DNA from: Escherichia coli
GTDB taxonomy: Bacteria > Pseudomonadota > Gammaproteobacteria > Enterobacterales > Enterobacteriaceae
DNA length: 64,000 nt
Direction: 5' to 3' (one strand)
Assembly (NCBI RefSeq): GCF_016026235.1
Contig: NZ_CP065613.1
Position 1 is the stretch's first letter; every line of letters begins with the position of its first letter. Below are positions 38,201 through 41,200 of this stretch, in pieces. The position numbers are program-made.

Positions 38201-41200
38201 TTGCGCAAGCACGCTAAAGTCGATGGTTCGAGCATCAATACGCGGTGGTGTCCCGGTTTTCAGACGACCAACGCGTAGCGGAAGTTCACGCAAACGGCGA
38301 GAAAGCGGAATGGACGGCGGATCACCAGCACGGCCACCGCTGTAGTTATCCAGACCGATATGAATTTTACCGTCGAGGAACGTCCCAACGGTGAGCACGA
38401 CGGCTTTGGCACGGAACTTCAGTCCCATTTGGGTAACAGCACCGACCACACGATCGTTTTCGACAATAAGATCTTCAACCGCCTGCTGGAAGATCATCAG
38501 GTTCGGTTGGTTCTCCAGCGCCGTACGTACCGCCTGACGGTAGAGCACACGATCCGCCTGAGCTCGGGTAGCGCGAACTGCCGGTCCCTTGCTTGCGTTT
38601 AGTATCCTAAACTGGATACCCGCCTGATCGATCGCTTTCGCCATCAGACCGCCGAGTGCATCCACTTCTTTTACCAGATGTCCCTTCCCAATACCGCCGA
38701 TCGCCGGGTTGCAGCTCATCTGCCCCAGAGTGTCGATATTGTGTGTCAAAAGCAGAGTCTGTTGACCCATACGCGCCGCAGCCATCGCGGCCTCGGTGCC
38801 TGCATGACCCCCGCCAATGATGATGACGTCAAAAGGATCCGGATAAAACATGGTGATTGCCTCGCATAACGCGGTATGAAAATGGATTGAAGCCCGGGCC
38901 GTGGATTCTACTCAACTTTGTCGGCTTGAGAAAGACCTGGGATCCTGGGTATTAAAAAGAAGATCTATTTATTTAGAGATCTGTTCTATTGTGATCTCTT
39001 ATTAGGATCGCACTGCCCTGTGGATAACAAGGATCCGGCTTTTAAGATCAACAACCTGGAAAGGATCATTAACTGTGAATGATCGGTGATCCTGGACCGT
39101 ATAAGCTGGGATCAGAATGAGGGGTTATACACAACTCAAAAACTGAACAACGGTTGTTCTTTGGATAACTACCGGTTGATCCAAGCTTCCTGACAGAGTT
39201 ATCCACAGTAGATCGCACGATCTGTATACTTATTTGAGTAAATTAATCCACGATCCCAGCCATTCTTCTGCCGGATCTTCCGGAATGTCGTGATCAAGAA
39301 TGTTGATCTTCAGTGTTTCGCCCGTCTGTTTTGCACCGGAATTTTTGAGTTCAGCCTCGAGTTTATCGATAGCCCCACAAAAGGTGTCATATTCACGACT
39401 ACCAATACCGATTGCGCCAAAGCGGACCGCAGAAAGATCGGGCTTCTGTTCCTGCAATGCTTCATAGAAAGGAGAAAGGTTGTCCGGAATATCTCCGGCA
39501 CCGTGGGTGGAGCTGATAACCAGCCAGATCCCCGAGGCAGATAAATCTTCCAACAGCGGACCGTGCAGCGTTTCGGTGGTAAAACCCGCCTCTTCCAGCT
39601 TTTCAGCCAGGTGTTCTGCTACATATTCGGCACCGCCGAGGGTGCTGCCGCTGATAAGAGTGATATCTGCCATAAACCGCCACCTTTATTAAGAGTGGCG
39701 TATTGTACGCTGTGAACGCGTTGGGATCTACCTGTGGAAAAGTATGGGATTAAAAAAGCCGATCAGGGCTTGATGGTACGCATGATCGGGTTCTGCAGGA
39801 CGATCAGTGTCTCGGTGGACTGAATTTCATCAATTGTTTGGATCTTGTTGATAAGTACATGCTGGAGAGCATCGATCGAACGGCACATCACTTTTATAAA
39901 GATGCTGTAGTGGCCGGTTGTGTAATAGGCTTCAGTGACTTCATCGAGGCTTTCCAGTTTCGCCAGCGCGGAAGGATAGTCTTTGGCGCTCTTTAATATG
40001 ATGCCGATAAAGCAGCCTACGTCATAACCGAGCTGCTTCGGGCTGACATCAATACGCGCCCCGGTAATGATCCCCGCCTGCTTCATTTTCTCTACTCGAA
40101 CGTGAATCGTCCCCGGACTGACGCCAAATTGTTTCGCCAGTTCGGCGTAAGCGGTGCGCGCATTGCCCATTAATGCTTCCAGGATGCCACGGTCCAGATT
40201 GTCGATTAGATAATTTTCCATAGGATTTTCTTATGCAGATTGATGATTCATTCTATTTTAGCCTTCTTTTTTAATGAATCAAAAGTGTGTGAGGCTTTTT
40301 ATTGAATGATTATTGCATGTGTGTCGGTTTTTGTTGCTTAATCATAAGCAACAGGACGCAGGAGTATAAAAAATGAAAACCGCTTACATTGCCAAACAAC
40401 GTCAAATTAGCTTCGTGAAATCTCACTTTTCTCGTCAACTGGAAGAACGTCTGGGGCTGATCGAAGTCCAGGCACCGATTCTTAGCCGTGTGGGGGATGG
40501 CACGCAGGATAACTTGTCGGGCTGTGAAAAAGCGGTGCAGGTAAAAGTGAAAGCTCTGCCTGATGCCCAGTTCGAAGTGGTTCATTCACTGGCGAAGTGG
40601 AAACGTCAGACCTTAGGGCAACACGACTTCAGCGCGGGCGAAGGGCTGTACACGCACATGAAAGCCCTTCGCCCCGATGAAGACCGTCTTTCTCCGTTGC
40701 ACTCGGTCTATGTAGACCAGTGGGACTGGGAACGCGTAATGGGCGACGGCGAGCGTCAATTCTCGACTCTGAAAAGCACGGTAGAGGCGATCTGGGCGGG
40801 AATTAAAGCAACCGAAGCTGCGGTTAGCGAAGAGTTTGGCCTGGCAACGTTCCTGCCGGATCAGATCCACTTCGTACACAGCCAGGAGTTACTGTCTCGT
40901 TATCCGGATCTCGATGCCAAAGGGCGTGAGCGGGCGATAGCGAAAGATCTTGGTGCTGTATTCCTCGTCGGGATTGGCGGCAAGCTGAGCGATGGTCATC
41001 GCCACGACGTGCGCGCACCGGATTATGATGACTGGAGCACCCCGTCAGAGCTGGGCCATGCGGGTCTGAACGGCGATATTCTGGTGTGGAACCCTGTACT
41101 GGAAGATGCGTTTGAGCTTTCTTCCATGGGGATCCGCGTGGATGCCGACACGTTGAAGCATCAGTTGGCGCTGACCGGTGATGAAGATCGTCTGCAGTTG

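What the first reader, a model, noticed from the sequence alone, without database searches (positions are those of the whole stretch)
38941..39207. oriC present with canonical architecture, now flanked by IS4 copies
All hallmark elements are visible: three 13-mers in the unwinding region, four DnaA 9-mers and dense GATC sites, between mnmG and mioC. This is well known and is noted mainly because it places the origin inside the IS4-bracketed segment.
Basis: partly seen in the sequence, partly recalled or inferred. Interest (0 to 1): 0.3.

Follow-up and report, generated by a model that had tools for sequence, protein, structure and literature searches.

The report
Ordinary E. coli oriC between IS4 copies
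This is the standard, textbook E. coli chromosomal replication origin, unchanged in layout, and the two IS4 insertion sequences 15 kb and 5 kb away are independent insertions at known-type hot spots that do not touch it.

Summary
Window 38940-39207 is E. coli oriC, in the 378-bp gap between mnmG (36962-38851, minus) and mioC (39230-39673, minus).

- **Alignment.** It aligns to MG1655 oriC with no insertion or deletion, so all spacings equal those of K-12.
- **Elements.** Present are the three 13-mers, boxes R1/R2/R3/R4 plus R5M and I1-I3, the Fis 15-mer, and 11 GATC sites in 245 bp (1.2 expected).
- **Single difference.** There is one A-to-G change at 39152, in the degenerate centre of the Fis site. 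The surrounding 61-mer is identical in 1269 of 5404 complete E. coli genomes, including O157:H7.
- **GC skew.** The cumulative G-C minimum falls at 38815.
- **IS4 bracket.** It is real: two directly oriented IS4 copies (23598-25022 and 44401-45826), each with its own 12-13 bp target duplication. Gene order matches K-12, so they are two separate insertions, not a composite transposon that moved.
- **Hot spots.** Both sites are occupied by IS4 in other E. coli, in both orientations. The closest complete genome (FDAARGOS_943, 99.95% identical) has both sites empty.

Verdict: already known, low interest. The only mild curiosity is the direct-repeat pair. It was absent from all six complete genomes (of 5,426) that carry IS4 at the glmS site.

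The parts
38940..39207 (.). oriC region, from the BamHI site (position 1 in my own position count, which I recall as the classical oriC numbering) to the end of box R4. The minimal origin is 38962-39206.
   Evidence: Gap-free alignment to MG1655 oriC with 1 substitution. 100% identical to complete E. coli chromosomes.
38962..38974 (+). 13-mer L of the DNA-unwinding element (GATCTATTTATTT)
   Evidence: Exact match. Three AT-rich 13-mers define the DUE (PMC5716108).
38978..38990 (+). 13-mer M (GATCTGTTCTATT)
38993..39005 (+). 13-mer R (GATCTCTTATTAG)
39019..39027 (-). DnaA box R1 (TTATCCACA), high affinity
   Evidence: R1 and R4 match TTATNCACA perfectly (PMC5716108).
39040..39062 (.). IHF-binding region between R1 and R5M (approximate limits)
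   Evidence: Sequence identical to K-12. Position between R1 and the left array taken from PMC8488378. Limits not tested here.
39074..39082 (-). DnaA box R5M (TCATTCACA)
39096..39104 (-). Low-affinity DnaA site I1 (TTATACGGT)
   Evidence: The site sequence is from my own recollection of the literature. It is identical to K-12.
39107..39115 (-). Low-affinity DnaA site I2 (plus strand reads TGGGATCAG)
   Evidence: The site sequence is from my own recollection. It is identical to K-12.
39125..39133 (+). DnaA box R2 (TTATACACA)
39145..39159 (.). Fis site 15-mer GAACAACGGTTGTTC. K-12 has A at the central base 39152, the only difference from MG1655 inside oriC.
   Evidence: It still fits the Fis consensus GnnYAnnnnnTRnnC (PMC10380432). 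Fis sites lie between R2 and C3 (PMC8488378). The 61-mer carrying the G allele is identical in 1269 of 5404 genomes.
39160..39168 (-). DnaA box R3 (TTATCCAAA)
39176..39184 (+). Low-affinity DnaA site I3 (plus strand reads TTGATCCAA)
   Evidence: The site sequence is from my own recollection. It is identical to K-12.
39199..39207 (+). DnaA box R4 (TTATCCACA), high affinity
36962..38851 (-). mnmG (gidA), transcribed away from oriC
   Evidence: Coordinates transferred from the FDAARGOS_943 annotation.
39230..39673 (-). mioC, transcribed towards oriC
23598..25022 (+). IS4 copy A, 1425 bp, in the glmS terminator. The 13-bp target duplication CACCGGTCGGCAG lies at 23585-23597 and 25023-25035. It is one A shorter than copy B in an A6 run, which splits the transposase frame.
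   Evidence: The site is empty in FDAARGOS_943.
44401..45826 (+). IS4 copy B, 1426 bp, in the ravA-kup intergenic region. The 12-bp target duplication CTCAAAGGGGGG lies at 44389-44400 and 45827-45838. The intact 442-aa transposase spans 44485-45813.
   Evidence: It has 6 differences from the K-12 IS4 with identical ends. Pfam Nterm_IS4 and DDE_Tnp_1.

Best explanation
The feature is the native, canonical E. coli chromosomal origin oriC, in its usual place between mnmG and mioC.

Mechanism (established knowledge of this origin, inferred here from sequence identity, not shown):
- DnaA stays bound to the high-affinity boxes R1, R2 and R4.
- As ATP-DnaA rises it fills the low-affinity arrays. The left array is R5M, tau2, I1, I2. 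The right array is C3, C2, I3, C1.
- Fis, bound between R2 and C3, is displaced. IHF bends the DNA between R1 and R5M.
- The left DnaA oligomer opens the AT-rich 13-mers, and DnaB is loaded for bidirectional replication.
- After firing, SeqA holds the 11 hemimethylated GATC sites and blocks re-initiation.

The two IS4 elements, 14 kb to the left and 5 kb to the right, are separate cut-and-paste insertions. Each landed in a preferred IS4 target: an A-run, about 20 bp, then a T-run, here the glmS terminator and the ravA-kup spacer. They lie outside oriC and its flanking genes and are not expected to affect origin function.
For: - Gap-free alignment to MG1655 oriC with a single substitution.
- 801 bp around it are 100% identical to several complete E. 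coli chromosomes, and the region is found in 5424 of 5426 genomes under mnmG/mioC.
- All named elements sit at K-12 spacing.
- GATC and DnaA-box enrichment lie far above chance.
- The cumulative G-C minimum is at 38815. Mean skew is -0.040 to the left and +0.057 to the right.
- The G allele at 39152 is shared by about 23% of complete genomes and keeps the Fis consensus.
- IS4 identity: 1426 bp, ends identical to K-12 IS4 with 6 substitutions, and an IS4-type DDE transposase.
- Independent insertion: each copy has its own 12-13 bp duplication, and the empty sites are seen intact in FDAARGOS_943.
- Gene order lpf-glmS-glmU-atp-rsmG-mnmG-oriC-mioC-asnC-asnA-viaA-ravA-kup-rbs is as in other E. coli.
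- SNP density against FDAARGOS_943 inside the bracket (9 in 19.4 kb) is no different in kind from the flanks.
- Hot spots: the ravA-kup site carries IS4 in 36 genomes in one orientation and 37 in the other. The glmS site carries it in 4 and 2.
- Four unrelated IS4 targets share the A-run / about 20 bp / T-run layout.
- The IS4 subgroup is described as having 'spectacular apparent insertion specificity' in the target arms (PMC2266710).
Against: - No functional data: origin firing is inferred from identity and skew only.
- The A-to-G change lies in the Fis site, and its effect on timing is untested.
- The assembly shows homopolymer errors in multi-copy repeats, so fine details of the IS4 copies are less certain than the unique DNA. 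This applies to the 1-bp difference between the copies and to the G-run at 45827-45839.
Confidence: 0.94

Rival explanations
1. The two directly oriented IS4 copies form a composite transposon (outer ends IRL of A and IRR of B). It carries oriC, the atp operon and glmUS as a 22-kb mobile unit, and it either arrived here or can leave as a unit.
For: - The outer ends are a correct left/right pair in the right geometry.
- Copy B encodes an intact transposase.
Against: - Each IS4 is flanked by its own duplication, and the two outer flanks differ: CACCGGTCGGCAG against CTCAAAGGGGGG.
- The segment is in native K-12 gene order, and the closest relative has the same DNA without either IS4.
- No oriC copy lies on a natural plasmid in PLSDB or on any plasmid of the complete genomes.
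- IS4 transposes rarely: 8 of 758 events in mutation-accumulation lines (PMC5009759).
- Excision would remove the only origin and essential genes.
Confidence: 0.02
2. The IS4 bracket is an assembly artefact. Multi-copy IS4 reads were placed wrongly by the assembler, and the real chromosome has one or no IS4 near oriC.
For: - The assembly has systematic one-base losses in G-runs of the rRNA operon relative to both MG1655 and FDAARGOS_943. Unique DNA has none, so repeats are poorly polished.
- The closest complete genome has both sites empty.
Against: - Both copies have precise 12-13 bp target duplications of the sequence seen once in the empty site. Misassembly does not create these.
- The same two sites are occupied by IS4 in independent complete genomes.
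Confidence: 0.03
3. The A-to-G change at 39152 in the Fis site makes this a functionally altered origin, with changed Fis occupancy and initiation timing.
For: - It is the only difference from K-12 inside oriC, and it sits at the centre of the palindromic Fis 15-mer.
Against: - The base lies in the degenerate centre of the Fis consensus, which is still matched.
- The 61-mer with the G is identical in 1269 of 5404 complete genomes, including O157:H7, so it is a common natural allele.
Confidence: 0.05

Closest known systems
E. coli K-12 MG1655 oriC (NC_000913.3 3925744-3925975 and flanks)
   Same: Same position between mnmG and mioC, the same elements in the same order, and identical spacing with no indel.
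   Different: One substitution (A to G at window 39152) in the Fis site, plus one more at 39247 inside the 3' end of mioC. K-12 has no IS4 at the glmS terminator or between ravA and kup.
E. coli FDAARGOS_943 (NZ_CP065615.1), the closest complete genome
   Same: 99.95% identical over the 19.4 kb between the IS4 copies and 100% over the 801 bp around oriC.
   Different: Both IS4 sites are empty. It carries two IS2 insertions (in lpfD and bglH) that the window lacks.
E. coli STEC17-190 (NZ_CP075649.1) and 21AR0303 (NZ_CM132268.1)
   Same: IS4 at both the glmS-terminator and the ravA-kup sites, so oriC is bracketed there too. In STEC17-190, aligned base by base, the duplications are the same. 21AR0303 was read from its annotation only.
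   Different: In both genomes the ravA-kup copy is in the opposite orientation, giving an inverted pair. The window has a direct pair. STEC17-190 is only 97.4% identical over the aligned 25.5 kb.
IS4 of E. coli K-12 (insG, NC_000913.3 4502090-4503515)
   Same: 1426 bp, identical ends, 12-bp duplication, and a target with an A-run and a T-run about 20 bp apart.
   Different: Copy B has 6 substitutions. Copy A is in addition one A shorter.

Membership tests
Enterobacterial (E. coli-type) oriC | Located between mnmG (gidA) and mioC | tested here: met
Enterobacterial (E. coli-type) oriC | DNA-unwinding element with three AT-rich 13-mers beginning GATC | tested here: met
   Exact K-12 13-mers at 38962, 38978 and 38993. 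The DUE is 73% A+T.
Enterobacterial (E. coli-type) oriC | DnaA boxes R1, R2 and R4 matching TTATNCACA, plus R3, R5M and the I sites, at reference spacing | tested here: met
   No indel against MG1655.
Enterobacterial (E. coli-type) oriC | IHF site between R1 and R5M, and Fis site between R2 and R3/C3 | tested here: met
   The IHF region is identical to K-12. The Fis 15-mer keeps its consensus despite the central A-to-G change.
Enterobacterial (E. coli-type) oriC | Cluster of 11 GATC (Dam/SeqA) sites in the minimal origin | tested here: met
   11 sites in 38962-39206 against 1.2 expected.
Enterobacterial (E. coli-type) oriC | Strand-compositional switch (GC skew) at the site | tested here: met
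   Cumulative G-C minimum at 38815.
Enterobacterial (E. coli-type) oriC | Fires as the active origin (marker frequency, autonomous replication of the cloned fragment) | not testable with these tools
   Needs sequencing-depth or wet-lab data.
IS4 (IS4 family, IS4 subgroup) | About 1426 bp, imperfect terminal inverted repeats, a single DDE transposase with an IS4 N-terminal domain, and 11-13 bp target duplication | tested here: met
Composite transposon | The two IS copies and the DNA between them inserted as one unit: a single duplication flanking the whole, with the segment foreign to the site | tested here: not met
   Each copy has its own separate duplication, the gene order is native, and a near-identical relative has empty sites.

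The most novel reading that the evidence does not exclude
The IS4 copies here are direct repeats, unlike the inverted pairs in the two complete genomes that also carry both. RecA-dependent exchange between them could therefore do one of two things. It could loop out a 22-kb circle carrying oriC, atp and glmUS, a natural self-replicating minichromosome. Or it could duplicate the origin segment in tandem, giving cell-to-cell variation in origin copy number. Nothing in the sequence shows that either has happened.
Probability: 0.03. Interest if true: 0.35.

Novelty: already known. Interest (0 to 1): 0.08.

Why it matters
It matters little. oriC of E. coli is among the best-characterised DNA elements known, and this copy is a common natural allele of it.

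The result is mainly useful as an anchor. It fixes the window as the origin-proximal region of an E. coli chromosome closely related to strain FDAARGOS_943. It also shows that the nearby IS4 copies are ordinary hot-spot insertions rather than evidence of a mobilised or rearranged origin.

One minor practical point follows. Direct repeats around an origin plus essential genes cannot be resolved by deletion without killing the cell, so the arrangement should be stable.

Tried and rejected
- **Composite transposon carrying oriC.** Rejected because of the separate target duplications, native synteny and empty sites in the nearest relative.
- **oriC on natural plasmids.** PLSDB returned only records of chromosome or near-chromosome size filed as plasmids, more distant Klebsiella and Enterobacter records, and one 4-kb E. 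coli record that I take to be a laboratory minichromosome. No plasmid copy exists in the complete-genome set.
- **Inversion of the origin segment in strains with inverted IS4 pairs.** STEC17-190, aligned directly, is colinear with the window. 21AR0303 shows the same gene order and orientation in its annotation.
- **IS4 at the glmS terminator in strains lacking lpf.** A glmS-side junction query found the same four genomes as the lpf-side query.
- **Published IS4 target consensus.** I recall AAA-N20-TTT from Mayaux et al. 1984. The papers held give only a general statement of strong specificity, so the consensus rests on my memory plus the four sites reconstructed.
- **Rozgaja et al. 2011 (PMC3192301).** Not held. 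Exact coordinates for tau2 and C1-C3 are therefore not given.
- **The IS4-A frameshift.** Not accepted at face value, because the same assembly has homopolymer losses in the rRNA operon.

Full report
**What is at the coordinates**

Window 38700-39500 is 100% identical over 801 bp to several complete E. coli chromosomes. It is found in 5424 of 5426 complete genomes, always annotated with mnmG on one side and mioC on the other. Transferring the annotation of the closest genome puts mnmG at 36962-38851 (minus) and mioC at 39230-39673 (minus). The finding therefore lies in a 378-bp intergenic gap.

**Base-by-base comparison**

Aligned to MG1655 (oriC annotated at NC_000913.3 3925744-3925975), the window shows no insertion or deletion. 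There are two substitutions:
- A to G at 39152, inside oriC.
- C to T at 39247, inside the 3' end of mioC.

I take the G of the BamHI site at 38940 as position 1, which I recall as the classical oriC numbering. On that scale the elements fall as follows:

| Element | Position count | Window |
|---|---|---|
| 13-mers L / M / R | 23-35, 39-51, 54-66 | 38962-38974, 38978-38990, 38993-39005 |
| R1 | 80-88 | 39019-39027 (minus) |
| R5M | 135-143 | 39074-39082 (minus) |
| I1, I2 | 157-176 | 39096-39104, 39107-39115 |
| R2 | 186-194 | 39125-39133 |
| Fis 15-mer | 206-220 | 39145-39159 |
| R3 | 221-229 | 39160-39168 (minus) |
| I3 | 237-245 | 39176-39184 |
| R4 | 260-268 | 39199-39207 |

This inventory matches the description of oriC as a DUE with three 13-mers plus a DnaA-oligomerisation region (PMC5716108). 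That region holds twelve DnaA boxes and an IHF site, with R1 and R4 as perfect TTATNCACA matches.

**More than chance**

- The minimal origin holds 11 GATC sites against 1.2 expected from the window's own density (Poisson P about 6e-8). It is the GATC-richest 245-bp frame in the 64 kb, with 12 sites against 6 for the next best.
- Exact TTATNCACA occurs 8 times in the window against 1.8 expected from shuffles. Three of these lie within 189 bp of oriC.
- Five boxes with at most one mismatch fall in that 189 bp against 0.18 expected.

**Origin position by composition**

GC skew is negative to the left (-0.040) and positive to the right (+0.057). The cumulative G-C minimum is at 38815, about 125 bp from the origin's left edge, and masking the IS4 copies does not move it. 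Gene orientation agrees: atp, glmUS and mnmG are on the minus strand to the left, and kup, rbs and the rRNA operon on the plus strand to the right.

**The single difference**

Base 39152 is the centre of the palindromic Fis 15-mer GAACAAC[A/G]GTTGTTC. The published Fis consensus GnnYAnnnnnTRnnC is degenerate there and is still matched (PMC10380432). Fis sites are placed between R2 and C3 (PMC8488378). The 61-mer carrying the G is identical in 1269 of 5404 complete genomes, O157:H7 included. It is a common natural allele, not a peculiarity of this strain.

**The IS4 bracket**

Two repeats 20.8 kb apart in direct orientation resolve to IS4-A at 23598-25022 and IS4-B at 44401-45826.
- Copy B is 1426 bp. 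Its ends are identical to the K-12 IS4 and it has 6 substitutions. It encodes a 442-aa transposase with Pfam Nterm_IS4 and DDE_Tnp_1 domains.
- Copy A is identical to B except for one A fewer in an A6 run, which splits the reading frame.
- Each copy has its own target duplication. For A it is CACCGGTCGGCAG (13 bp). For B it is CTCAAAGGGGGG (12 bp).
- The undisturbed targets are seen once each in FDAARGOS_943. That genome is the closest complete one: 99.95% identical between the IS copies, with 9 substitutions in 19.4 kb.

Gene order across the whole window is that of other E. coli. These are therefore two separate insertions into a resident chromosome segment, not a unit that moved.

**Why there**

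Both sites recur in unrelated strains and in both orientations:
- The ravA-kup site carries IS4 in 36 genomes in the window's orientation and 37 in the other.
- The glmS-terminator site carries it in 4 and 2.

Four independent IS4 targets were reconstructed: the glmS terminator, ravA-kup, the K-12 site, and tynA-feaB. All show an A-run, about 20 bp, then a T-run, with the duplication centred. This fits my recollection of the AAA-N20-TTT target rule. It also fits the published remark on strong specificity in the target arms of the IS4 subgroup (PMC2266710).

Of the six complete genomes with IS4 at the glmS site, two also have one at ravA-kup (STEC17-190 and 21AR0303). Both are inverted pairs and colinear with the window. 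The other four have only the glmS copy. The direct pair seen here was not found in any of the six. That is a small curiosity, with no sign of consequence.

**Quality caveat**

Relative to both MG1655 and FDAARGOS_943, the window's rRNA operon is missing one G in at least eight G-runs. The 19 kb of unique DNA around oriC has no indel against FDAARGOS_943. This is the pattern of unpolished homopolymer errors in multi-copy repeats. The one-base difference that frameshifts IS4-A may therefore be an assembly error. The oriC sequence itself lies in unique DNA and is not affected.

**Conclusion**

The observation and the interpretation both hold. The feature is the already known E. coli oriC in canonical form. 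The IS4 copies are ordinary hot-spot insertions that leave it untouched. Function as the active origin is inferred from identity and skew, and could only be shown with marker-frequency or minichromosome experiments.

Noticed in passing
window 56600-61000 (16S and 23S rRNA genes): At least eight G-runs are one base shorter than in both MG1655 and FDAARGOS_943. Unique DNA nearby has no indels. This looks like homopolymer assembly error confined to multi-copy repeats.
   Followed up: yes
window 24467 region (IS4-A) against 45271 region (IS4-B): IS4-A has A5 where IS4-B has A6. This splits the transposase into 283-aa and 194-aa frames. Given the rRNA homopolymer errors, it may not be real.
   Followed up: partly
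window 25023-25058: The IS4-A target duplication lies 24-36 bp downstream of the glmS stop codon (glmS 25059-26888, minus strand). That places it in the glmS terminator, which from my own knowledge is where Tn7 inserts (attTn7).
   Followed up: no
window 23680-23688 and 44483-44491: Each IS4 carries an exact DnaA-box consensus TTATGCACA overlapping the transposase start codon. I do not know whether DnaA regulates IS4.
   Followed up: no
window 44311-45971: IS4-B sits 89 bp upstream of the ravA start and 144 bp upstream of the kup start, inside the divergent promoter region. The same site carries IS4 in about 73 of 5426 complete genomes, split evenly between orientations.
   Followed up: partly
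L006 (NZ_CP031833.1, tynA-feaB) and hits H128-H148: About 25-50 bp of flank next to IS4 at unrelated loci (tynA, mug, rraA, pdxK, rcdA, a cold-shock gene) aligns to the glmS-terminator flank. The IS4 targets therefore resemble one another in sequence, not only in A/T-run layout.
   Followed up: partly
L005 (FDAARGOS_943) 1088-2316 and 13792-15020, against window ~18620 and ~7330: The closest relative has two IS2 insertions, in lpfD and bglH, that the window lacks. The window has two IS4 copies that the relative lacks. The IS content of the two sister strains has diverged quickly.
   Followed up: partly
window 45827-45839: The G-run to the right of IS4-B has 7 Gs, while the empty site in FDAARGOS_943 has 6. 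This is either natural run-length variation or another homopolymer error.
   Followed up: no
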